Shown piece by piece: positions 182 through 12,532 of a stretch of DNA of 14,457 nucleotides (position 1 is the first letter of the stretch; each line of letters opens with the position of its first letter). The stretch is from a virus (lineage: Duplodnaviria; Heunggongvirae; Uroviricota; Caudoviricetes): the IMG/VR virus record IMGVR_UViG_2537562191_000039, positions 1 through 14,457 of that record; one strand, given 5' to 3'. The position numbers and the translations under genes are program-made. The notes below the pieces were generated by a model. The model was not told where the DNA came from. It made no database searches and worked only from the letters and a program-made list of their open reading frames with translations.

Positions 182-3100
182 GTGCTCGTCGGGGGAACAC
201 CATGTTTTACCGCGGGGCATATGGTTCTTTGTAAAAATGGCTATAAACCAATAGAAAATGTTTGCCCTGGTGATTACGTAGTCAGTCATCTCGGGCGGTT
301 ACAACAAGTAAAAAGAGTTGGTTCAAAAATAGCTAATACGGGGTTACTTAATGCCGTTGGGCAGCCTTTAGGTATAAGAACAACCAATGACCATCCCTTC
401 CTGGCTGTTCGGTGGAAAGCCCAAAACACCCGGAAAAATGGCACATATTTTAAGAGAGAGTTGTTGTCTGAACCGGAATGGCGAGCAGCATGTGATATGC
501 CGGGATATCAATGGTGCGCTCTAACTAATTTCAATATTGCATTTCCAGATATTTGTTCTCGGTTCTTGTCTGAAGAACAGGCTATGTATCTTGCGGGCGC
601 TTATGTTGGCGATGGATATATTAGGAGATGGAGAGGTAAATCTAAGAAGGCGGTTGTTTTTGGCATAAATTGCCAGAAATTGAGAAAGTTTCATTGCCGC
701 ATACCAGAAAACATATTTTCCGTGGCAAGCGAAATCCGAGGGAGCATCAAAGTAACCTTGAATGATACGTGTTATGCCAATTGGCTTAATGAACATTTTG
801 GCGAGTTAAGCCATGCTAAGCGTATCCCTGCATGGGTGATGTCGCATCCATTGCGTCATGTGTTTTTACAAGGCTATCTTGATACTGATGGGACACCAAG
901 TGGTAAAGCGGGATTTAGAATTAATAGTGTTAGTTCTGCGCTTGCTTGGGGCGTTGCGGGGTTGTCACAGACTTGTGGTTATGTTTCTTCGGTCAGCTTT
1001 ATTGAAGTTGAGCCCAAAAAAGTGATCGAGGATCGCGTGGTAAATCAACGGAATTATTATCAGGTAACAATCTGCCCGCAGAAATTGTCACGTAAATCAA
1101 GATTGGCTCATGGAATGCTTTTACGAACAGTCAAAGAGTTTAAATCGGTAGGCCTAGATACTGTATACAACATAGAAGTCGAAGGTGATCATTCCTATAT
1201 CCTCAATGGTGCGGTGGTCCATAACTGTCAGGCATTCAGTATCGCGGGATTACGTGGTGGGCTTGATGATGAGCGTGGCGCGCTAACTTTAAAGTATGTG
1301 GAGCTTGCAAATGCAATTGACGACAAACGGGCTGAGTCATTTCTCAAACCAGCCGTTATCGTCTGGGAAAATGTCCCAGGAGTCTTGTCATCGGCAGATA
1401 ACGCCTTCGGATGTTTCCTTGCCGGATTGGCTGGAGAAGATGCGCCATTTGAACCAGGTGATCGACCTGAATCAGGAAAAAGTAACACGTTCTGGCGGTG
1501 GGATGGCAAAACCGGTTGCCATGCTCCAAAGTGGCCGCAGTGTGGTTGTATTTATGGACCGCAGCGAAAAGTGGCCTGGAGAATCCTTGATGCCCAATAC
1601 TTCGGAGTGGCACAACGACGCCGACGCGTGTTTGTTGTCGCAAGTGCTCGAACAGACCTCGATCCCGCAACGGTACTTTTTGAGTTCGAAGGCGTGCGCC
1701 GGAATATTGCGCCGAGCCGAAAAAAGAAGGAAATCGCTTCCGCCATTATTGCAAATGGCGCTGCAATCAGTGGCGAAAGCCTAAATCCATGCCTACACGC
1801 TGACATGCCACCCGGTATGAAATCGACGAAAGCCGTAAACGCTTTCAGGATGGCAGCATTTGGGGAATATATTGACGATGAAACCGCATCGACAGTAAAG
1901 GCAAGAGATTTTAAAGATGCCACTGACCTTGCCGTTTTTAGCAGCACAGGAGCAGGTTTTTGGTCAGAAGGGCATGGTACATTGCGGGCACGTGAGCAAG
2001 AAAGCCATGAGCATCTTGTTACATTGGCTTTTCCTGAGCGTATGAGCGGTACACAACATGCTGCAACTAAGAATACTTCACCATCTCTAATGGCTAAAAA
2101 TCCAACAGCTGTTTGCTATGAAGTAAGAAACGCAGAAGTAGCTGTCCGCCGTCTTACCCCTGTCGAATGTGAAAGGCTGCAAGGTTTTCCTGAGGGGCAT
2201 ACGTTGATCCCGACGGAAAAGCGTAAAAAAGTTTCTTCAGATGAACTGGCATACCTTCGCAATCACTATCCAGATTTAAGCGAAGAAGAGGCCGCGATGC
2301 TTGCAGCTGACGGACCGCGTTACAAAGCGATCGGCAACAGCATGGCAGTTCCTGTTATGCAATGGATAGGGTGTCGCATTCTTGCGACCGTAGCGGATAA
2401 ACAGCAAAAAACAATAAATACCATTACCTACACAAGAAAACTCCGGACTCCGGATGAATATGAACGCCCAATATTCAAATGGGTAGGCGGTAAATTCTCA
2501 GAGTTGCCTACAGTGCTTGAGCATCTACCACACGGCAAGCGGTTAATAGAACCATTCGTTGGTGGCGGTTCCGTATTTACGAATGCAGGATTTCGCCACA
2601 ACCTGCTTAATGATATTAACGGTGACCTGATTAACTTCTATCAGACATTGCAGCGAGAGGGACATTCGCTCGTCACGCTGGCATATAGTTTTTTCAAAAA
2701 TTACAACAACGCTGACGCTTACCTCGAAGTGCGTGAGGCATTTAACAGAGGAAAGTATGACCAACTACATCATGCTGCTGCCTTTTTGTACCTTAATCGG
2801 CACTGTTTTAATGGCGTAACGCGGTACAACCAAAATGGCGAGTTCAACGTAGGGTATGGCAAATACAAAGCGCCCTACTTCCCACATGCAGAGATGGAGG
2901 CATTTTTGGCTGATGACGTACTCAAAAACACTTCCTTTGTATCAGGTGACTTTGCTAGCGTCATTGAGGCGGCTGGTGAAGACGATGTGATTTTTTGTGA
3001 TCCGCCGTATGAACCGCTTCCGGATACAGAGGGATTTACCAGCTATTCAGGAAATAGCTTCCGTTTCGACGAACAGAAACGGCTTGTATCACTGTTGGTG

Positions 3101-3274
3101 GATGCCCACCAGCGCGGCGCTAAGGTAGTGATAACAAATAGTGGTGCTCCAAACATCCGTGAACTATATGAAGGAAACGGGTTTAAAGTACATCATATGG
3201 CAGCCAGACGGTCGGTTTCCTGCAAGGCGTCAACACGTGTAGTTGCTAACGATATAATTGCAATAATGAAGTAA
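182..3274 (+). CDS. Fused DNA methyltransferase: C5-cytosine MTase domain (motifs IV-X only, intein-interrupted) plus Dam-like N6-adenine MTase domain; 5'-truncated by the IS
   Basis: ORF-track protein of 1030 aa. C5-MTase motifs appear in canonical order: motif IV split by the intein (SPDVLVGGTP|CQAFSIAGLRGG), motif VI VIVWENVPGV (ENV at nt 1367-1375), motif VIII YFGVAQRRRRVFVVA, motif IX RRLTPVECERLQGFPEGH, motif X AIGNSMAVPV. The last ~290 aa carry Dam-family motifs: KWVGGK, EPFVGGGSV (nt 2555-2572), FLYLNR, EFNVGYGKYK, FCDPPY (nt 2999-3010). No motifs I-III are present. Reading upstream in frame hits TGA at 113-115 inside the IS end, so the GTG at 182 (no Shine-Dalgarno) is probably not the ancestral start. 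Confidence 0.85.
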   Translation: MLVGGTPCFTAGHMVLCKNGYKPIENVCPGDYVVSHLGRLQQVKRVGSKIANTGLLNAVGQPLGIRTTNDHPFLAVRWKAQNTRKNGTYFKRELLSEPEWRAACDMPGYQWCALTNFNIAFPDICSRFLSEEQAMYLAGAYVGDGYIRRWRGKSKKAVVFGINCQKLRKFHCRIPENIFSVASEIRGSIKVTLNDTCYANWLNEHFGELSHAKRIPAWVMSHPLRHVFLQGYLDTDGTPSGKAGFRINSVSSALAWGVAGLSQTCGYVSSVSFIEVEPKKVIEDRVVNQRNYYQVTICPQKLSRKSRLAHGMLLRTVKEFKSVGLDTVYNIEVEGDHSYILNGAVVHNCQAFSIAGLRGGLDDERGALTLKYVELANAIDDKRAESFLKPAVIVWENVPGVLSSADNAFGCFLAGLAGEDAPFEPGDRPESGKSNTFWRWDGKTGCHAPKWPQCGCIYGPQRKVAWRILDAQYFGVAQRRRRVFVVASARTDLDPATVLFEFEGVRRNIAPSRKKKEIASAIIANGAAISGESLNPCLHADMPPGMKSTKAVNAFRMAAFGEYIDDETASTVKARDFKDATDLAVFSSTGAGFWSEGHGTLRAREQESHEHLVTLAFPERMSGTQHAATKNTSPSLMAKNPTAVCYEVRNAEVAVRRLTPVECERLQGFPEGHTLIPTEKRKKVSSDELAYLRNHYPDLSEEEAAMLAADGPRYKAIGNSMAVPVMQWIGCRILATVADKQQKTINTITYTRKLRTPDEYERPIFKWVGGKFSELPTVLEHLPHGKRLIEPFVGGGSVFTNAGFRHNLLNDINGDLINFYQTLQREGHSLVTLAYSFFKNYNNADAYLEVREAFNRGKYDQLHHAAAFLYLNRHCFNGVTRYNQNGEFNVGYGKYKAPYFPHAEMEAFLADDVLKNTSFVSGDFASVIEAAGEDDVIFCDPPYEPLPDTEGFTSYSGNSFRFDEQKRLVSLLVDAHQRGAKVVITNSGAPNIRELYEGNGFKVHHMAARRSVSCKASTRVVANDIIAIMK
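203..1225 (+). other. Intein (Hint splicing domain with LAGLIDADG homing-endonuclease insert), 341 aa, inserted at the catalytic Cys of the C5-MTase PCQ motif
   Basis: Begins with Cys (TGT 203-205) directly after GGTP, with an N-terminal block CFTAGHMVLCKNGYKPIENVCPGDYVV. Block B is TNDHPF. Two LAGLIDADG-type motifs, LAGAYVGDGY (nt 590-616) and FLQGYLDTDG (nt ~866-892), each retain the Asp. Block F is VYNIEVEGDHSY. Ends ILNGAVVHN (AAC 1223-1225) followed by +1 Cys (TGT 1226-1228). Removing it joins GGTP to CQAFSIAG, restoring GG.PCQ.FS.AG. Confidence 0.8.
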
Positions 3275-3322: not shown

Positions 3323-4984
3323 TTAACCTAACTTCGCCCAGGTATCACGCAGCCCAACGGTGCGGTTAAATACCGGTTTTTCCGCCGTAGAATGGCGGCT
3401 GTCGAGGCAGAAATAACCTTCACGCTCAAACTGGAATGCTTTACCCGCTACCGCTTCTTTCAGCGACGGTTCAGCAAAGCCCTGTTTGATCACCAGCGAT
3501 TCCGGGTTAATCACCGACAGGAAATCATCCGCAGCACCTGGGTTCGGCACGTTGAACAGACGATCGTACAGGCGGATTTCAACCGGCAGCGCATGTGCCG
3601 CGCTCACCCAGTGAATAACGCCTTTCACTTTACGACCATCTGCCGGATCTTTGCTTAAGGTGTCGGCGTCATAAGTACAGAAGATGGTGGTGATATTGCC
3701 TTCGGCATCTTTCTCCACGCGTTCAGCCTTAATGACGTAAGCATTACGCAGACGCACTTCTTTACCCAGCACCAGACGTTTGTACTGCTTGTTAGCTTCT
3801 TCGCGGAAATCGGCGCGGTCGATCCAAATCTCACCGCTAAACGGCACCTGACGGCTACCCATTTCCGGTTTGTTTGGATGGTTCGGCATGGTGACCATTT
3901 CGCCTTCGCCCTGGTAGTTTTCGATAACCAGTTTCACCGGATCGATAACCGCCATTGCGCGCGGGGCATTTTCGTTGAGATCTTCACGGATGCAGGATTC
4001 CAGCGACGCCATCTCAATGGTGTTGTCCTGCTTGGTCACGCCGATGCGTTTGCAGAACTCACGAATAGAAGCCGCAGTGTAACCACGACGACGCAGACCG
4101 GAAATGGTCGGCATACGCGGGTCATCCCAGCCTTCAACGTGCTTGTCGGTCACCAGCAGGTTCAGCTTACGCTTGGACATCACGGTGTATTCCAGATTCA
4201 GGCGCGAGAATTCGTACTGGCGCGGATGAACAGGAATGGTGATGTTGTCCAGTACCCAGTCATACAGACGACGGTTGTCCTGGAACTCAAGCGTACACAG
4301 AGAGTGCGTAATACCTTCCAGCGCATCGCTGATGCAGTGGGTGAAGTCGTACATCGGGTAGATGCACCACTTGTTGCCAGTCTGGTGGTGTTCAGCAAAC
4401 TTAATACGGTACAGCACCGGGTCGCGCATCACGATAAACGGCGAAGCCATGTCGATTTTCGCACGCAGGCAGGCTTTACCTTCTTCAAAACCACCGGCAC
4501 GCATTTTTTCGAACAGCGCCAGGTTCTCTTCAACGCTGCGGTCGCGGTACGGGCTGTTTTTACCCGGCTGCGTCAGGGTGCCGCGGTATTCGCGGATCTG
4601 TTCCGGCGTCAGTTCGTCAACATACGCCAGGCCTTTGTTGATCAGTTCAACAGCATAGGCATGGAGTTTGTCAAAATAATCGGAGGAGTAACGGATGTTG
4701 CCAGACCAGTGAAAACCTAACCATTCAACGTCGTTTTTAATCGACTCAACGTACTCGATATCTTCTTTTACTGGGTTAGTGTCGTCGAAACGCAGGTTGC
4801 ACTGGCCTTTATAGTCCTGGGCGATCCCGAAGTTCAGGCAGATAGATTTCGCATGACCAATATGCAGATAGCCATTCGGTTCCGGCGGGAAACGGGTATG
4901 TACTGTGGTGTGCTTACCACTGGCCAGATCTTCATCGATGATCTGACGAATAAAGTTAGTCGGGCGGGCTTCTGCCTCACTCAT
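3323..4984 (-). CDS. glnS: Glutamine--tRNA ligase (glutaminyl-tRNA synthetase)
   Basis: 553-aa product begins [48 protein letters not shown], with the class I HIGH motif and a VMSKR (KMSKS-type) motif. Full length and near-identical to E. coli GlnRS as I recall it. The flanks are not the chromosomal nagE/chiP neighbours. Confidence 0.97.
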
Positions 4985-7796: not shown

Positions 7797-7951
7797 TTGA
7801 GAATCAAAATGTAATTTTAAAAGAGAAGCACCCAAAAATCCACACCAAACGAGACAAAAAAGAGCGCTTGTTGAGTTTATTTTGAGAATATCTTAATCAC
7901 CCACTGAATGATGGCCTGATAGTGAGATTTATTTGAGAATGAATTGAGAAT
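7797..7951. repeat. Iteron cluster (parC-like centromere/operator) in the parM upstream region
   Basis: Exact TTGAGAAT copies at 7797-7804, 7882-7889, 7933-7940 and 7944-7951, plus degenerate copies TTGAGTTT (7871-7878) and GTGAGATT (7922-7929). All lie between the divergent parM and PAAR genes. Confidence 0.55.
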
Positions 7952-8036
7952 ACAAAAATATTCCGAAATTTAACTCTCCGTTTGAATGACGAAATAACAA
8001 AGTGATGACAATAGGAGGATAACCAGGAGGTGAAGA

Positions 8037-8321
8037 ATGAGCGCAATAGCCACCAGCGACACCCTTTGTTCTGGTCACGGAGGATTTCCGCCGCGACTGG
8101 TAGCTGAAACCGTTCCCTGGTTCACCGTTAACGGTAAGCCAGTTGTTGTAGATGGTGCCATGTTTCCCAGTCACACTGACGGTAACAGTGCACACCCAGG
8201 GGCAGCTGTATCGACGCGAGTATGGTTTTCGATAGGTGGAAAGGGAGTTGTCTGTGTAGGCGATCCGCTTTCTTGTGGTTCTGTTATCGCCAACGGCGAG
8301 GATATTTTTCAGGTTGCATAA
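8037..8321 (+). CDS. PAAR-domain protein (spike-tip type, as in phage gp5.4 or T6SS PAAR)
   Basis: 94 aa with three PAAR-like segments and conserved metal ligands: DTLCSGHGGFPP, VNGKPVVVDGAM...HTDGNSAHPG, IGGKGVVCVGDPLSCGSVIANG. Strong RBS AGGAGG at 8025-8030, 6 nt before ATG 8037. Confidence 0.7.
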   Translation: MSAIATSDTLCSGHGGFPPRLVAETVPWFTVNGKPVVVDGAMFPSHTDGNSAHPGAAVSTRVWFSIGGKGVVCVGDPLSCGSVIANGEDIFQVA

Positions 8322-9124
8322 TGCTTGATTCAATAGGTGAAGTTAAAGCCTTCAAAATTCTGTCAGATGCCGGTATCTCTACACCAGAATCTATAACCAT
8401 AAGCCGGGCAGCTTCTGTAAAAGCCTCATCACTCGCCAGCGCCATACAGGGAATAGTTCACGCCGATAAAACCTATCCTGATTCTGTTTCGGCCTGGACT
8501 ACTCAATTGCTTGGCTTTTCTGAACAGCTCAATGAGGCCAGCAAAGCGTCTTCATTACTGGCTGATTCTCTTTCCCCATACACCAAGCCATCAGAGCTGT
8601 TACAGATGAAGATTGGCTGGGAATGCTACGCAAAAGGTAACGAGCTGACCCCCATACCTGCTTTCGCCCTTGTTGAGGGAATGGGGAATGTTTCCATTCC
8701 GCAATCTCTAACGGACGCATTGACGGCGCTAAAACTTGATGCTCTGAAAACCGCCATGAACGCCATTAACGCAAAAATTGAAGCTGCCGGAAGTGCTGGT
8801 GGTGATAGCAATGGTGGGCAGGGTGGTACTGGGGGCGCTCAGGCTCCAGTCATTACTCAGGATGAAATTGATGCTTTACGGGAAGCAGTGACAGCCGCCG
8901 AAGTTTTACTCTCCGAAATTAACTCAGCAAGTGAGAGTGTCGTAGCCCTTGCAGGTCGCATTAAAACGTCAACCACTCAGGCAACCAAAGGTTTAGAGAA
9001 CGCTGTCGCCATCACGTTAACTGGTTCTCTACTGGATGATGCAGTAATGAGTCCGGCAATCAGTTTAATCATACCACAAGGCGTTATCGACGCGCTCCAA
9101 ACGAACACCAAAAAGGAACCATAG
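8321..9124 (+). CDS. Hypothetical protein, Ala/Ser/Leu-rich with a central Gly-rich linker; function unknown
   Basis: ATG at 8321 overlaps the PAAR stop (TAATG). 267 aa from MLDSIGEVKAF. Internal low-complexity linker AGSAGGDSNGGQGGTGGAQAP. No transmembrane segment or catalytic motif recognised. The ORF-track N-terminal extension from 8222 overlaps the PAAR gene and is rejected. Confidence 0.55.
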   Translation: MLDSIGEVKAFKILSDAGISTPESITISRAASVKASSLASAIQGIVHADKTYPDSVSAWTTQLLGFSEQLNEASKASSLLADSLSPYTKPSELLQMKIGWECYAKGNELTPIPAFALVEGMGNVSIPQSLTDALTALKLDALKTAMNAINAKIEAAGSAGGDSNGGQGGTGGAQAPVITQDEIDALREAVTAAEVLLSEINSASESVVALAGRIKTSTTQATKGLENAVAITLTGSLLDDAVMSPAISLIIPQGVIDALQTNTKKEP

Positions 9125-9163: not shown

Positions 9164-9655
9164 ATGTTTAACACCAAAAAAATGAACCTGAAGAGGATGG
9201 TTTTGAAAAAGATAATTTTGATTGTAATTGCGCTTTTAGCCATTTCTGGAATTTACCGAACAACGACGGCAGTTATCGAACACATCAGGTATGTCCGATC
9301 GCTTGAAGACTCAAAATCACAACTGGAAAGCACGAACAACACGCTTTCTACCGCATTACAGTTAAGTGAGAACGCTCGCTCAGCCATGCTGACCGAAAAC
9401 GAAAGAATTAAAGCACTGGAAAAGGAGTACCAGCGCAAAACAGCAGAACTGAATGCCAACCTAATCAAACAACGAGAGGAAAGCCAGAATGAAATCACTC
9501 GCCTTGAAAATGCGTTACGCCGTGCTGGGATTAACGATGTGCGTGTGCCTGATGACGTTATCAGGATGCAGCGGGAACGGGCAAAAGCCATCAACCAGCG
9601 TGCCAGTGAAAATTACCGTAGAAGCCACCAGCAAGCCGCAGGCAAATCTGATTGA
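9164..9655 (+). CDS. Putative i-spanin (Rz-like inner-membrane spanin subunit)
   Basis: 163 aa. N-terminal basic region then a hydrophobic segment IILIVIALLAISGIY (type II membrane anchor), followed by a charged, heptad-rich periplasmic region. The o-spanin gene is embedded in its 3' part in another frame. Confidence 0.6.
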   Translation: MFNTKKMNLKRMVLKKIILIVIALLAISGIYRTTTAVIEHIRYVRSLEDSKSQLESTNNTLSTALQLSENARSAMLTENERIKALEKEYQRKTAELNANLIKQREESQNEITRLENALRRAGINDVRVPDDVIRMQRERAKAINQRASENYRRSHQQAAGKSD

Positions 9656-9821
9656 TTACTCCCCTTGTTTAGTGCCAGAGGACACGCCAGTGCTGTTAAA
9701 CAAGTATCCGACATACGCTGAACAGTTATTCAGCACGATCGACGAATGCAACCAACGAAACGCACTGAATAACCAAAGAAACAGGGAGATTTGGGAAGGG
9801 AAGGGGGATCAAGGCTCCTGA
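9489..9821 (+). CDS. Putative o-spanin (Rz1-like outer-membrane lipoprotein)
   Basis: Signal peptide with lipobox (MKSLALKMRYAVLGLTMCVCLMTLSG|C) and a Pro/Cys-containing mature region. Starts inside the i-spanin gene in a different frame and extends 166 nt past its stop. GAGGA lies 8 nt upstream of ATG 9489; ATG 9510 is an alternative start. Confidence 0.6.
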   Translation: MKSLALKMRYAVLGLTMCVCLMTLSGCSGNGQKPSTSVPVKITVEATSKPQANLIDYSPCLVPEDTPVLLNKYPTYAEQLFSTIDECNQRNALNNQRNREIWEGKGDQGS

Positions 9822-10267
9822 AGCCAGATGTCCTGGCTGTCAGCTTCTTCGAAACCGTGACAGACGTTAAAGTCACTCAAGCGATACTGACGCTGACGGC
9901 CTCTATTTCGCTCATGCCAATGCATGTATCCACCAGCAAATGCCAGCGGACAATCACTATAGTCTATGTAACCAATACCATTCCCCAAACGTGCTTCGCG
10001 CGCACCGGCTTTCCAGGACAGTAGAAAAGAGTCACGATCCGCCAGCATAACAACAAAATCGTCCGGATCTCCGATACAGTGAAGAATACCTGCCTTACAT
10101 AACTGCTTGAGCGCTTTTGACTGGCTCAGGATGTCTTCTCCGTAATACTGAAAACAATCATCAACAACAGCGGGATAGCCTGCCGGGGGATTCAGGCTGG
10201 TTGGTATAGCTGACGCGATCGCCAGCATTAAGCGATATTGTGTTTTTGATGGGTTAACGTGACTCAT
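9809..10267 (-). CDS. Hypothetical protein (152 aa), second gene of a two-gene minus-strand operon
   Basis: ORF-track 152 aa beginning MSHVNPSKTQYRLMLAIASAIP. AAGGGA sits 5 nt upstream of the ATG. No recognisable domain. Its 3' end overlaps the convergent o-spanin gene by 13 nt. Confidence 0.55.
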   Translation of the reverse strand: MSHVNPSKTQYRLMLAIASAIPTSLNPPAGYPAVVDDCFQYYGEDILSQSKALKQLCKAGILHCIGDPDDFVVMLADRDSFLLSWKAGAREARLGNGIGYIDYSDCPLAFAGGYMHWHERNRGRQRQYRLSDFNVCHGFEEADSQDIWLQEP

Positions 10268-10283
10268 TTTGTCCCTTGTTTAC

Positions 10284-10676
10284 TCATTGTCGCCATGCAT
10301 TTTTTAACTCAGGAATATCTGCCATTTCAATTAACTTGCGAAGTCCAGCACTGACTTTCCCATTGCCAACCATAGCAAGCCAATCTCTTACAGCTTTCGG
10401 CATGTAGAGCGTTGCAGTTACCGGCTCTTCAACCCTGGCAGGACATCCGCATACAGGCCATTTAATTGATTCCATAACTTCGGATGCCGGGGTGAGGGCG
10501 GGGACATTGAGTATATCTCTACCAGAAAACTGGATAACGATCCGTTCAGCGAGCGAGAGTATCTCACTTTCGGCAAGAATTGATGCCAACTGCGCCTCAA
10601 CAAGAAAGCGACTTGTTGTGTTCAGAGAGTGGCTCTTAGCGCCATTTTTATACGAAACAAAGATTCGATACGCCAT
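10284..10676 (-). CDS. Hypothetical protein (130 aa) with C-terminal ribbon-helix-helix-like DNA-binding region
   Basis: C-terminus TATLYMPKAVRDWLAMVGNGKVSAGLRKLIEMA fits a strand-helix-loop-helix RHH pattern (Arc/MetJ-like). The N-terminal ~80 aa are unrecognised. First gene of the operon, 16 nt upstream of the 152-aa gene. Confidence 0.55.
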   Translation of the reverse strand: MAYRIFVSYKNGAKSHSLNTTSRFLVEAQLASILAESEILSLAERIVIQFSGRDILNVPALTPASEVMESIKWPVCGCPARVEEPVTATLYMPKAVRDWLAMVGNGKVSAGLRKLIEMADIPELKNAWRQ

Positions 10677-10834
10677 AACTCTAATGATTTGTGTTAGAAA
10701 ACTAAAATTAAATCACATAACAACATGCGTGTTAATAGATTTTATTTTACTAAACCTATTGACTAAATCACAAAGTAGGTATTGTTAGCCCGTCAAAAGA
10801 ACCTTCACGCCGCGCCCGAATTTAGGGCTTAACC

Positions 10835-12532
10835 GTGAATAAAAACATTCAGCCAGCTCGTGATCGCGAGCGCGAGATTATGAATCGGGCGGCAAGCGTC
10901 ATGGCTATGACCGTCGATCCGACCACCGATGCAGCAGGCAACATGATTGCTGACCAGGCAGTAATGATGGAAAACCTGGATAAAGCAATCCAGAAAGTGC
11001 CTATGTTTGAAGGCGTAAATCCAGAGGTCGCTCGTCAGATCACTGGTGGGTGGGCTATGTCTCTGCATGAGTATAAACGTCAACATGGTCATTACCCGGC
11101 AAGTGACATCCTGGCGAACGCACACATGGCTCTTGAACGCCTGATGACTGAATGTGCCAGTGATACCCATGAAGGCACGGGTAAGGCAATGTTTGAGTCT
11201 GTCGCGCAATCAATGCGTAGCTCTGACGGCGTAATGAAAGTTGCTCAATATGCTGCTCTAATTCTGCCTGCCTCTCTGGGCGCTGCTACCAGTGATGCCT
11301 GTACTTTTGTTCCTTGTGATCGTGACGAGTCAAATATTTATGAACTGGTCAACGTAGCAGGCACAAAATTCGGCACCTTCAAACAAGGTGACGAACTGAA
11401 TATGCAGTCAGCTGGTGTTTATTCTCAAATGAAGCGCCTGTATACCCTTTCCACTAAAGGGGATGGCAGCACCAAAACCTTCCAGTTCGACATCCAAAAT
11501 TTTGAGGGACAATCCTGCCCGCTTCGCGCTGGTTATAACAAACTGCTGATCAACCGCAAACCGTCCAAAGTTGACGACGGCGATGGCAACCTTTATTTCA
11601 ATGCTAAAGACAGCAAAGGTAATGCTTTCTCAGCGACTGCCAAAGTTGCCTATGACACTGGTGTCATTGACATTACATTTACCCAGGCTCCGCCAGAAGG
11701 TACTGAAATTGCTGTTCAGGTCGAAATTAACATCGAGCGCAATCCAAGCCTGATTCCTGTGATCAACCAGGCTATGCGTAAGTACGAAGTTCGTCCGTCC
11801 CAGTACGTAATTGCTTCCGAACACACGGTAATGTCCGCATCCGATTTAAGCCGTGAGCACGGCCTTGAATTAGCGGCACTTCAGTTCTCCGCGATGCGTA
11901 ACTGGATCTCCCATGAAACTGACATCATGCGTCTGCGCACCCTGGTATTCCATACCGTTTATGGCCGTGAATTTGATGTGGCTCTGCCGGAAGCTCAAAA
12001 CTATGAGTCCTGGGTCGGCCTCCTGCGTCACGTAGTAAACGCTCTGTCTCAGGAAATGGCAAATCGTACCCTGACAACGGGTATTCGTGGCGGCTTTGCT
12101 GGTGGTGACGCCGCGAACTTCCTGCGCTCTCTGCCTCCACAGCACTTCCAGATCGCACCAGGTTACGTTCAGTCGCCGTATGTACAGTACATCGGCACCC
12201 TGTTTGGCACGATTCGTATTTACGAAGTGCCGCAACCTGTCTGTGAGCAATTCCAGGCACAGGGATATGACTTCGGGCTGGATGACATCTTCTTCTATGG
12301 GCGTGGCGAAGGCATCGGTAAAGCCGGTCTGATTGCTGGTGATGCAGTCCCTGCAATCCCTTACGTGCACGAAACCAATCCGTCTCTCGTTAACCGTACC
12401 ACTCTCTGGGGCAGTGCCATCAACGAAGTACATCCTCGCAACGGTGAAAACTACTTCACTCGCCTGCGTCTGACTCGTGCCAAAGAAGGCGCTATCGACA
12501 TGCTGACAGGCAAGGTTAACGAAAAAAAGTGA
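10835..12532 (+). CDS. Putative major capsid protein (large phage head protein); exact family not established
   Basis: 565-aa ORF with GTG start (an in-frame ATG at 10880 is an alternative). It is followed by an Ig-like decoration-type gene and ends in an A_AAA_AAG slippery heptamer. The C-terminal region loosely recalls T4 gp23-type capsid proteins, but this is from memory only. The gene is certainly real; the product call is tentative. Confidence 0.5.
   Translation: MNKNIQPARDREREIMNRAASVMAMTVDPTTDAAGNMIADQAVMMENLDKAIQKVPMFEGVNPEVARQITGGWAMSLHEYKRQHGHYPASDILANAHMALERLMTECASDTHEGTGKAMFESVAQSMRSSDGVMKVAQYAALILPASLGAATSDACTFVPCDRDESNIYELVNVAGTKFGTFKQGDELNMQSAGVYSQMKRLYTLSTKGDGSTKTFQFDIQNFEGQSCPLRAGYNKLLINRKPSKVDDGDGNLYFNAKDSKGNAFSATAKVAYDTGVIDITFTQAPPEGTEIAVQVEINIERNPSLIPVINQAMRKYEVRPSQYVIASEHTVMSASDLSREHGLELAALQFSAMRNWISHETDIMRLRTLVFHTVYGREFDVALPEAQNYESWVGLLRHVVNALSQEMANRTLTTGIRGGFAGGDAANFLRSLPPQHFQIAPGYVQSPYVQYIGTLFGTIRIYEVPQPVCEQFQAQGYDFGLDDIFFYGRGEGIGKAGLIAGDAVPAIPYVHETNPSLVNRTTLWGSAINEVHPRNGENYFTRLRLTRAKEGAIDMLTGKVNEKK

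What the first reader, a model, noticed from the sequence alone, without database searches (positions are those of the whole stretch)
9809..10834. Uncharacterised two-gene minus-strand operon (130-aa protein with C-terminal RHH, then 152-aa unknown) wedged between lysis and head genes
The two genes are tightly linked with a 16-nt gap, transcribed against the flanking lysis and morphogenesis genes, and each has its own RBS. The first ends in an RHH-like DNA-binding fold; the second has no recognisable domain. The position between functional modules, the opposite orientation, and the pairing of a small DNA-binder with an unknown partner are what one sees for toxin-antitoxin, defence, anti-defence or superinfection-exclusion cargo in phages and plasmids. 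The upstream intergenic region (10677-10834) carries two TAAATCACA copies at 10710-10718 and 10763-10771 that could be operators. This is the best candidate in the window for an undescribed small system.
Basis: inference. Interest (0 to 1): 0.6.

Follow-up and report, generated by a model that had tools for sequence, protein, structure and literature searches.

The report
Repressor-controlled early genes beside capsid gene
Two small genes of unknown function in a D6-type (P1-like) phage-plasmid are real and conserved, but they are not a toxin-antitoxin or defence pair: they look like prophage-repressed early genes, one fixed beside the capsid gene and the other a portable passenger.

Summary
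The window is a D6-type, P1-like phage-plasmid. The two genes are D6 orf52 (130 aa) and orf53 (152 aa). The ORFs, their orientation and the 16-nt gap are as described, and both are under purifying selection.

They are not a co-inherited module.
- The 130-aa family always lies about 160-180 bp from the major capsid gene, transcribed away from it. What follows it varies: the 152-aa gene, nothing, RelE-type modules, or more than ten small genes.
- The 152-aa family occurs elsewhere in other P1-like elements, in the cre/ref/dut early region, and in Vibrio elements that lack the 130-aa family.
- The 130-aa gene diverges independently of its partner (65% against 96% identity in one relative).

The "operators" are something else.
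- AAATCACA is D6's late-promoter box. The capsid-side copy is the capsid late promoter.
- The other copy overlaps the -10 of the operon's own promoter and is not conserved.

A D6-type C1 repressor operator overlaps that promoter. The operon is therefore probably silent in the lysogen and expressed early in lytic growth.

The RHH call is plausible but no HMM or fold search supports it. Neither protein matches any known family. This is an ordinary uncharacterised early accessory locus, of modest interest.

The parts
10284..10676 (-). Gene for the 130-aa protein (D6 orf52; PHROG 7830, unknown function). It has an N-terminal small alpha/beta domain and a C-terminal helix-turn-helix segment that may be RHH.
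   Evidence: ORF. 99% identical to D6 orf52. AF2 pLDDT 74. The family has 42 clusters, all without Pfam hits. It is always divergent from the capsid gene. dN/dS 0.15.
9809..10267 (-). Gene for the 152-aa protein (D6 orf53; PHROG 8101, unknown function). It is a portable, strongly constrained early accessory protein.
   Evidence: ORF. Identical to D6 orf53. The family has about 23 representatives of 135-152 aa, with invariant Y41, F81, G88, G95, Y100, F110, G113, H116 and C136-H137-G138. It occurs in other genomic contexts without the 130-aa gene. dN/dS 0.023.
10707..10735 (-). Predicted sigma-70 promoter of the operon: -35 TTAACA (10735..10730), 17-nt spacer, TG-extended -10 TTTAAT (10712..10707). 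The first TAAATCACA copy (10709-10717) is the reverse complement of its TGTGATTTA.
   Evidence: Read from the sequence. The geometry is conserved in L002 and L010 and less clearly in L011. The scan tool missed it because its rule requires A at position 2 of the -10; it reports an alternative promoter upstream, TTGTGA-18-TAAAAT at 10773..10744.
10688..10709 (+). D6-type C1 repressor operator (TTTGTGTTAGAAAACTAAAATT). It spans from the -10 to about +10 of the operon promoter.
   Evidence: A PWM built from 12 other D6 sites gives one hit in the whole window, here, with score 29. D6 has 14 such sites against 0.2 expected. They lie where P1 has Oc1, Olpa, Odmt, Oref and Omat. The site is conserved in L002, L010 and L016.
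10759..10785 (+). Late promoter of the capsid gene (D6 equivalent of P1 LP23): TTGAC, box AAATCACA (10765-10772), 7 nt, -10 TATTGT (10780-10785). It contains the second TAAATCACA copy.
   Evidence: The same box-spacer-TAnnnT layout lies upstream of at least 10 D6 late genes. AAATCACA occurs 17 times in D6 against 3.5 expected. The position and the core AA.TCAC resemble the P1 -22 box AAGTGACTT.
10709..10717 (+). First TAAATCACA copy. It has no usable -10 on the + strand and coincides with the -10 region of the minus-strand promoter.
   Evidence: It is not conserved as AAATCACA in L002, L010, L011 or L016.

Best explanation
The two ORFs form a short leftward operon of early lytic genes, switched off in the prophage state, in a D6-type phage-plasmid.

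Regulation. A sigma-70 promoter (TTAACA-17-TGaTTTAAT) drives the operon. A D6-type C1 repressor operator covers its start region. C1 should therefore keep the operon off in the plasmid prophage, and it should fire on infection or induction (inferred).

The 130-aa gene. It is a position-locked backbone gene of the D6 branch of P1-like elements. It always sits back to back with the capsid late promoter and heads a slot whose downstream content is freely exchanged. Its C-terminal half most likely forms a small dimeric DNA-binding domain of RHH type. I take it to be a regulator acting on its own divergent promoter region (inferred, not shown).

The 152-aa gene. It is an independent, portable and very strongly constrained early protein of P1-like phage-plasmids. 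Its usual home is the cre/ref/dut early region. In D6-type elements it has landed in the slot behind the 130-aa gene. Its biochemical activity is unknown. It most likely acts on host or DNA functions early in lytic growth.

The TAAATCACA copies. They are not operators of this operon. The capsid-side copy is the late-promoter (Lpa-type) box of the capsid gene. The other is part of the operon's own -10.
For: Identity. The window is 98.9% identical to phage D6 and 100% to E. coli plasmid AP018804. The genes are orf52 and orf53, annotated hypothetical.

Not a module.
- The 130-aa family lies 156-179 bp from the capsid gene, divergently transcribed, in Salmonella, Klebsiella, Enterobacter, Citrobacter, Pantoea, Xenorhabdus, Yersinia and Hafnia elements. 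The downstream genes differ in each.
- In Pantoea pEuc3 the two families are about 37 kb apart on the circular 95-kb plasmid (58 kb in record coordinates). There the 152-aa homologue sits as cre - 79 aa - it - HTH - dut.
- Other 152-aa homologues follow ref or precede dut.
- Vibrio plasmids carry the 152-aa family but no 130-aa family.
- Identities to the window in L002 are 65% (130 aa), 96% (152 aa) and 91% (capsid). In L016 they are 44%, 83% and 81%.

C1 operator.
- The motif ATRTGTTAGAAAAYTAAWWT has 14 sites in D6 against 0.2 expected. They lie upstream of c1, lpa, repL, hrdC-dcm-dam, ref, at the end of ref, and upstream of icd-ant.
- The P1 record places C1 operators at c1, lpa, dmt, ref and mat.
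- A PWM that excludes this site still finds it as the only hit in the window.

Late box.

Both genes are under purifying selection. Base composition does not differ from the flanks.
Against: - Nothing here shows transcription, C1 binding or DNA binding by the 130-aa protein.
- The operator assignment rests on motif recurrence and on analogy of position with P1.
- The AF2 model of the 152-aa protein is unusable (pLDDT 46), so its role is a guess from context.
- Some C1-controlled P1 genes are leaky in lysogens, so prophage-state expression is not excluded.
- The slot downstream of the 130-aa gene carries RelE-type TA modules in Hafnia and Xenorhabdus. Cargo expressed in the plasmid state does therefore land there.
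Confidence: 0.55

Rival explanations
1. Type II toxin-antitoxin or addiction module. The 130-aa RHH protein would be the antitoxin and autorepressor, and the 152-aa protein the toxin that stabilises the plasmid prophage.
For: The layout fits: a small putative DNA-binder is followed 16 nt later by an unknown protein. The same slot holds RelE/HTH and RelE/ParE modules in Hafnia and Xenorhabdus relatives.
Against: - Each family occurs widely without the other.
- The 130-aa allele varies (65%, 44%) while the 152-aa protein stays at 96% and 83%. There is no co-variation, as a cognate pair would show.
- The putative DNA-binding part is C-terminal, the reverse of RHH antitoxins.
- There are no toxin or antitoxin family hits.
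- A C1-type operator predicts repression in the plasmid state.
- D6 already carries phd/doc and RelE/HigA modules.
Confidence: 0.06
2. Prophage-expressed anti-phage defence or superinfection-exclusion pair that protects the lysogen.
For: The genes are accessory-looking, oriented against the structural genes, at a junction between modules. The cargo slot is variable.
Against: - No PADLOC hit.
- The two genes are not co-inherited.
- The operator predicts silence in the lysogen.
- Elsewhere the 152-aa family sits in early operons next to cre, ref and dut.
Confidence: 0.08
3. Early anti-defence locus. The 130-aa protein would be a fusion of a small inhibitor domain with an autorepressor domain, like anti-CRISPR proteins fused to their Aca regulator. 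The 152-aa protein would be a second, independent counter-defence effector.
For: - A strong early promoter under C1 control.
- The first gene combines a fast-changing N-terminal domain (37-65% identity) with a better-kept C-terminal domain (57-72%).
- Several allele classes of it circulate in otherwise near-identical plasmids.
- The N-terminal domain resembles many 55-85-aa orphan phage proteins (TM up to 0.70). Its best PDB neighbours are AcrIF9 and the Dmd antitoxin, but neither match is significant.
Against: - The high divergence comes with high dS (2.2 against about 1). It therefore looks like recombinational import of an old allele rather than positive selection; dN/dS is 0.15.
- There is no functional evidence at all.
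Confidence: 0.17
4. The 130-aa protein is a timing regulator of the adjacent late capsid promoter and of the upfC promoter, which shares a 17-nt element. Its job would be to hold back or tune late expression.
For: - Back-to-back placement with the capsid late promoter, at a near-constant 156-179 bp, is kept across genera.
- The 17-nt element TGACnAAATnACAAAGT occurs exactly twice in the 91-kb D6 genome, upstream of the capsid gene and upstream of upfC. These two sites flank the operon.
Against: - The core of that element is the general late-promoter box, found at more than 10 late genes. It needs no regulator beyond Lpa.
- The 130-aa alleles diverge strongly while the capsid-side promoter block stays nearly invariant.
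- P1 expresses gene 23 without any such protein.
Confidence: 0.12

Closest known systems
C1-controlled early operons of phage P1 (for example Pref/Oref-ref, Pdmt/Odmt-uhr-hrdC-dmt, Plpa/Olpa-lpa)
   Same: A sigma-70 promoter is overlapped by a single asymmetric repressor operator of about 17-20 bp. Copies of that operator are scattered through the genome in front of early genes. In D6 the motif sits at the same genes as in P1: c1, lpa, hrdC/dmt, ref and the end of ref.
   Different: The operator sequence is D6-specific (GTTAGAAAAYTAA, against ATTGCTCTAATAAATTT in P1, which I recall from memory). The P1 consensus finds no credible sites in D6. The two genes have no P1 homologue. C1 binding has not been tested.
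P1 late promoters (Lpa-dependent, -22 box plus -10; for example LP23 AAGTGACTT-N4-TAAAAT)
   Same: The capsid-side TAAATCACA lies in a box-spacer-TAnnnT arrangement directly upstream of the gp23 homologue. The same arrangement recurs before at least 10 D6 late genes. It shares the core AA.TCAC and the position of the P1 box.
   Different: The D6 box is AAATCACA (or AAATAACA) and is not palindromic. The exact P1 box occurs only once in D6. The first copy, at 10709-10717, lacks a -10 and is not conserved.
Ribbon-helix-helix regulators (Arc/Mnt/CopG/ParG class)
   Same: The C-terminal 45 residues show an extended segment (VTATLYMP), helix A, an invariant G-x-G-x-x-S turn, and helix B. The best local hhalign registers against Mnt, CopG, ParD and NikR fall on the strand/helix A or the turn/helix B.
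   Different: No HMM or fold search supports membership. The comparison sequences were recalled from memory. The domain is C-terminal, behind a 75-aa alpha/beta domain.
Type II toxin-antitoxin modules with RHH antitoxins (ParD/ParE, CcdA/CcdB, RelB/RelE)
   Same: Two small adjacent co-oriented genes, the first a putative DNA-binder.
   Different: The two genes are not co-inherited and do not co-vary. The domain order is reversed. There is no toxin family match. The operon is predicted to be off in the plasmid state.
Anti-CRISPR proteins fused to their Aca-type autorepressor (for example AcrIIA1; recalled from memory)
   Same: The first gene of an early operon combines a small variable domain with a DNA-binding-type domain.
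   Different: There is no sequence or significant structural similarity, and no evidence of any inhibitory activity.

Membership tests
Type II toxin-antitoxin module | The two genes are inherited together as a unit | tested here: not met
   The 130-aa family occurs without the 152-aa gene in Pantoea, Xenorhabdus, Yersinia, Hafnia, Citrobacter and Enterobacter elements. The 152-aa family occurs without the 130-aa gene beside it, and in Vibrio with none at all.
Type II toxin-antitoxin module | Toxin or antitoxin belongs to a known toxin/antitoxin family | tested here: not met
   No hit in Pfam, NCBIfam or PADLOC.
Type II toxin-antitoxin module | Cognate partners co-vary | tested here: not met
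   Identities to the window for the 130-aa and 152-aa proteins are 65% and 96% in L002, and 44% and 83% in L016.
Type II toxin-antitoxin module | Toxicity of one product and neutralisation by the other | not testable with these tools
   Needs expression experiments.
Ribbon-helix-helix DNA-binding superfamily | Match to an RHH sequence profile | tested here: not met
   No RHH family at E<=10 for 32 family members or for 10 C-terminal fragments. hhalign against remembered Arc, Mnt, CopG, ParG, omega, ParD, CcdA, RelB and NikR gave probabilities <=1.1%.
Ribbon-helix-helix DNA-binding superfamily | Strand, helix A, G-x-S/T turn and helix B in order | tested here: inconclusive
   AF2 gives helices 94-103 and 108-118 (pLDDT about 85) after an unstructured 85-93. 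G104 and G106 are invariant and S109 is conserved in many members. This is compatible with RHH but also with other two-helix motifs.
Ribbon-helix-helix DNA-binding superfamily | Dimer with an antiparallel two-stranded ribbon that binds DNA | not testable with these tools
Known anti-phage defence systems (PADLOC-DB) | Protein matches a defence-system model | tested here: not met
   No hits for either protein.
P1-type C1-repressed early operon | Operator matching the element's own repeated asymmetric consensus, overlapping the promoter | tested here: met
   A PWM built without this site scores 29.0 at 10688-10709, the only hit in 14.5 kb. D6 has 14 sites against 0.2 expected, at the P1-equivalent genes.
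P1-type C1-repressed early operon | C1 binds the site and represses transcription | not testable with these tools
   Needs EMSA or a reporter assay, or RNA-seq of lysogen against induced cells.
P1/D6-type late promoter (for the TAAATCACA copies) | Box at about -22 followed after 7-8 nt by TAnnnT, upstream of a late gene | tested here: met
   Copy 2 meets it: AAATCACA-AAGTAGG-TATTGT, 49 nt upstream of the capsid start. The same layout is found at pmgB, R, prt, ddrB, lydA, gene 7, mat, the lysozyme gene and upfC. Copy 1 does not: the following hexamer is ATGCGT, and the copy is not conserved.

The most novel reading that the evidence does not exclude
The 130-aa protein would be a new kind of self-regulating early effector. 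A fast-diversifying small inhibitor domain is fused to an RHH-type autorepressor. It is fixed at the head of an exchangeable early cargo slot beside the capsid gene of D6-branch phage-plasmids. The 152-aa protein would be a new, highly constrained counter-defence or host-takeover enzyme (invariant H116, C136-H137) shared by P1-like elements from Vibrio to Enterobacterales.
Probability: 0.15. Interest if true: 0.6.

Novelty: new member of a known kind. Interest (0 to 1): 0.3.

Why it matters
D6-type phage-plasmids are common in E. coli, Salmonella and Shigella: 121 records in PLSDB match this stretch. Sorting their backbone genes from their cargo helps in reading these elements.

This work gives three usable results.
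- It derives the D6 repressor-operator consensus and the D6 late-promoter box. Together they allow early and late genes to be assigned across the whole element.
- It identifies a fixed gene (130 aa) that heads an exchangeable early cargo slot between the capsid and spanin genes. In P1 the same junction holds the par/rep module.
- It shows that the 152-aa protein is a widespread, very strongly constrained early protein with no known fold or family. That makes it a reasonable single-gene target for functional work.

It also removes a tempting but unsupported "new toxin-antitoxin or defence system" reading.

Tried and rejected
- **Family searches.** Pfam, NCBIfam and PADLOC found nothing for either protein. 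PHROGs gave only the families' own unknown-function groups.
- **PDB profile searches.** Four alignments gave nothing below E=0.4.
- **AF2 model of the 152-aa protein.** With 10 sequences it reached pLDDT 46 and is unusable, so I ran no fold search on it.
- **Homology to P1 UpfA.** It has the same length (130 aa) and lies at the same junction, but there is no similarity to either protein.
- **Homology of the 130-aa family to Lpa.** None, for D6 or P1 Lpa.
- **P1 C1 operator consensus in D6.** ATTGCTCTAATAAATTT (from memory) gave no credible sites. D6 uses a different operator.
- **P1-type Lpa box in D6.** AAGTGACTT occurs once, and the ACTAAnTTAGT palindrome once. Neither is the D6 late signal.
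- **hhalign of the C-terminal domain** against RHH sequences recalled from memory was not significant.
- **Rfam on the whole window** found nothing.
- **Base composition** gave no foreign-DNA signal.
- **Literature.** The D6-like population paper does not mention these genes. The P1 genome paper (PMC523184) is not held in the library.
Full report
**What the window is.** Positions 9600-11000 are 98.9% identical to Escherichia phage D6, a P1-like phage-plasmid, and 100% identical to E. coli plasmid NZ_AP018804. In all, 121 PLSDB plasmids from Escherichia, Salmonella and Shigella match this stretch. In D6 the two genes are orf52 (130 aa) and orf53 (152 aa), both annotated hypothetical.
- On one side lie upfC (a PAAR protein), upfB and an overlapping Rz/Rz1-like spanin pair (PHROG Rz-like).
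- On the other side lies the gp23-like major capsid gene.
- In P1 the same junction, between gene 23 and the overlapping ppfA/mlp pair, holds parS-parB-parA-repA-upfA.

**Check of the observation.**
- The ORFs, the strand, the 16-nt gap and the flanking genes are as stated.
- The 152-aa gene has a good ribosome-binding site (AAGGGA). The 130-aa gene has only a weak one (AGAG).
- The two genes converge on the Rz1-like ORF and overlap it by 13 nt.
- Both are genuine genes. Against a Salmonella relative (L002), dN/dS is 0.15 for the 130-aa gene and 0.023 for the 152-aa gene, compared with 0.05 for the capsid gene.
- A repeated 9-mer arises in 8.5% of dinucleotide shuffles of the 158-nt spacer.

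**What the proteins are.** Neither protein matches Pfam, NCBIfam or PADLOC. PHROGs places them in groups 7830 and 8101, both of unknown function. PDB profile searches find nothing.

The 130-aa family:
- It comprises 42 clusters, all without Pfam domains. Those that carry an organism name are from Enterobacterales, plus one Acinetobacter plasmid, and many sit on contigs of about 80-100 kb.
- Its AlphaFold2 (AF2) model has pLDDT 74. It shows an N-terminal beta-alpha-beta-beta domain (residues 1-70), a poorly predicted linker, and helices at 94-103, 108-118 and 122-129.
- Invariant residues are Y3, Y9, G12, S15, H16, G77, P85, P93, L100, G104 and G106.
- The C-terminal pattern (VTATLYMP, helix, G-N-G-K-V-S, helix) fits a ribbon-helix-helix. 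No profile detects it, even for isolated C-terminal fragments. hhalign against RHH sequences I recalled from memory is not significant, although the registers are right for Mnt, CopG, ParD and NikR.
- RHH is therefore a reasonable guess, not a finding.

The 152-aa family:
- It has about 23 representatives at 50% clustering, of 135-152 aa.
- Invariant residues are Y41, F81, G88, G95, Y100, F110, G113, H116 and C136-H137-G138.
- Its AF2 model is unusable (pLDDT 46).

**The two genes are not a module.** This is the main result.
- In D6-type elements the pair is syntenic (L002-L005, L010, L011, L016, L034).
- The 130-aa family is always found 156-179 bp from the capsid gene, divergently transcribed, in much more distant P1-like elements.
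- What follows it differs each time:

| Element | Genes downstream of the 130-aa gene |
|---|---|
| D6-type elements | the 152-aa gene |
| Pantoea pEuc3 | nothing |
| Xenorhabdus | NinX, RelE/ParE, NadS, HicB |
| Hafnia | RelE plus an HTH protein |
| Yersinia | two small ORFs |
| Citrobacter, Enterobacter | ten or more small genes, including an Ea22-like gene |

- The 152-aa family sits elsewhere in other elements. In pEuc3 it lies about 37 kb from the 130-aa gene on the circular 95-kb plasmid (58 kb in record coordinates), in the order cre - 79 aa - it - HTH - dut. In other contigs it follows the Ref-like nuclease or precedes dut.
- Thirteen Vibrio plasmids and Vibrio phage douglas 12A4 carry the 152-aa family. 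No Vibrio element carries the 130-aa family.
- P1 itself has neither gene. Its UpfA, which has the same length, is unrelated.
- The partners do not co-vary, as these identities to the window show:

| Relative | 130-aa protein | 152-aa protein | Capsid protein |
|---|---|---|---|
| L002 | 65% | 96% | 91% |
| L011 | 57% | 87% | 83% |
| L016 | 44% | 83% | 81% |

- The 130-aa segment also has a higher dS (2.2 against about 1). It therefore looks like an old allele moved in by recombination. At least three allele classes (about 100%, 81% and 62-65% identity) circulate in plasmids whose 152-aa gene is at least 95% identical.

**The "operators".** I listed the 110 nt upstream of D6 late genes. A shared layout emerges: AAATCACA (or AAATAACA), then 7-8 nt, then TAnnnT.
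- It is found before gene 23, upfC, pmgB, R, lydA, ddrB, prt, the lysozyme gene, gene 7 and mat.
- AAATCACA occurs 17 times in D6, against 3.5 expected and a maximum of 10 in 200 shuffles.
- P1 late promoters carry a box at about -22 that serves as the Lpa site (PMC10695390). Examples are LP23, AAGTGACTT-N4-TAAAAT, and LPpac, ATGTGACTT-N4-TACCCT.
- The D6 box shares the core AA.TCAC and the position of the P1 box.
- The capsid-side copy (10764-10772, with -10 TATTGT at 10780-10785) is therefore the capsid late promoter.
- A longer 17-nt version, TGACnAAATnACAAAGT, occurs exactly twice in D6: here and upstream of upfC (window 7987-8003).
- The other copy (10709-10717) has no -10 on the + strand and is not conserved as AAATCACA in L002, L010, L011 or L016.
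- On the minus strand that copy reads TGTGATTTAAT. This is the TG-extended -10 of a good sigma-70 promoter for the operon: -35 TTAACA at 10735..10730, a 17-nt spacer, and -10 TTTAAT at 10712..10707. The geometry is kept in L002 and L010.

**A repressor operator on the operon's promoter.** The 14-mer GTTAGAAAACTAAA lies just downstream of that -10. It also lies just upstream of D6 c1.
- A PWM scan finds 14 sites in D6 against about 0.2 expected.
- The sites lie upstream of c1, lpa, repL, hrdC-dcm-dam (an overlapping pair), ref, at the end of ref, and upstream of icd-antirepressor, pmgS, pdcB and orf117-dut.
- The annotated P1 record places its 17-bp asymmetric C1 operators at c1 (Oc1a-e), lpa (Olpa), dmt (Odmt), ref (Oref) and the end of ref (Omat).
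- I recall, but did not check here, that P1 also has C1 operators before kilA-repL and c4-icd-ant.
- The P1 operator sequence itself is absent from D6. That fits an element with its own immunity specificity.
- A PWM trained without the site in question gives a single hit in the whole 14.5-kb window, at 10688-10709, with score 29. It also finds the equivalent site in L002, L010 and L016.
- I infer that the operon is C1-repressed in the plasmid prophage and expressed early after infection or induction. This inference rests on motif recurrence and analogy of position, not on binding data.

**How it most likely works.**

Shown:
- There are two real genes in one transcription unit, preceded by a good promoter.
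- A genome-wide repeated operator-type motif covers that promoter's start region.
- The 130-aa gene is fixed in position and its downstream neighbours are exchangeable.
- The 152-aa gene is portable and very strongly constrained.

Inferred:
- C1 control and early timing.
- DNA binding by the C-terminal part of the 130-aa protein, probably on its own spacer.
- An early, host-directed or DNA-directed role for the 152-aa protein.

Disfavoured:
- Toxin-antitoxin, addiction, lysogen-expressed defence and superinfection exclusion are disfavoured by the lack of co-inheritance and co-variation, the absence of family matches, and the predicted repression in the lysogen.
- D6 also already has phd/doc and RelE/HigA.
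- An early anti-defence role remains open but has no positive support. It could apply to the 130-aa protein as an inhibitor fused to an autorepressor, to the 152-aa protein, or to both.

**Verdict.** This is a previously annotated but uncharacterised early accessory locus of a known phage-plasmid lineage, not a new two-gene system. Interest is modest (0.3). The most useful leads are the 152-aa protein as a conserved orphan, and the capsid-spanin junction as a cargo slot headed by the 130-aa gene.

Noticed in passing
window 182-3274 (+): One 1030-aa ORF joins a C-5 cytosine methylase segment (PF00145) to a Dam-type methylase (PF02086, residues 767-1011). It carries an intein-like insert (Hint_2, LAGLIDADG_3, Intein_splicing; about residues 7-350) between GGTP and CQAFS, that is, at the catalytic Cys of motif IV. 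D6 has an unrelated 226-aa 'cytosine methylase' and a separate Dam, with no intein. An in-frame stop lies just upstream of 182, so the true N-terminus is unclear.
   Followed up: partly
window 10786-10834 (+) and the equivalent region in L002, L010, L011, L016, L027, L029: The leader of the capsid mRNA is almost invariant from E. coli to Pantoea and Citrobacter (GTCAAAAG...CGCCGCGCCC-loop-GGGCT). It can form a small hairpin (GCCC / GGGC) that would enclose the AGGG Shine-Dalgarno sequence 9 nt before the GTG start. Yersinia and Hafnia show ATGC...GCAT at the same place. This may be a translational control element.
   Followed up: no
window 7986-8012 (+): A late-promoter-type element lies upstream of upfC: ATGACGAAATAACAAAGT, then 4 nt, then GACAAT. 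It shares a 17-nt motif with the capsid promoter, and these are the only two exact copies in the 91-kb D6 genome. The P1 record annotates no late promoter at this position.
   Followed up: partly
window 9164-9655 and 9489-9821 (+); P1 ppfA/mlp in L032 11355-11943: This is an overlapping Rz/Rz1-type spanin pair. The first protein has a transmembrane segment and a coiled coil. The second is a lipoprotein with an LSGC lipobox, read in another frame. P1 ppfA ('possible periplasmic function') and mlp ('membrane lipoprotein precursor') have the same overlapping layout at the same position, so they are probably the P1 spanins.
   Followed up: partly
D6 record 7850-9085 (L030): About 1.2 kb of D6 between the tRNA genes and pmgS has no annotated gene. 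It carries two C1-type operator motifs (8909-8930 and 9065-9086, minus strand). It may hold an unannotated early or immunity function.
   Followed up: no
window 3323-4984 (-): The phage-plasmid carries a full-length glutaminyl-tRNA synthetase gene (553 aa), annotated in D6 as orf62 and similar to E. coli GlnS.
   Followed up: no
window 8037-8321 (+): UpfC matches the PAAR motif at Pfam's gathering score (27.2 bits against a cut-off of 27). The 'unknown protein function' genes upfC and upfB, which lie ahead of the spanins, may therefore encode a spike-tip protein.
   Followed up: no
window 9809-9821: The 152-aa gene and the Rz1-like ORF converge and overlap by 13 nt. No terminator-like site lies between them. 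Early leftward and late rightward transcripts would therefore be antisense to each other.
   Followed up: no
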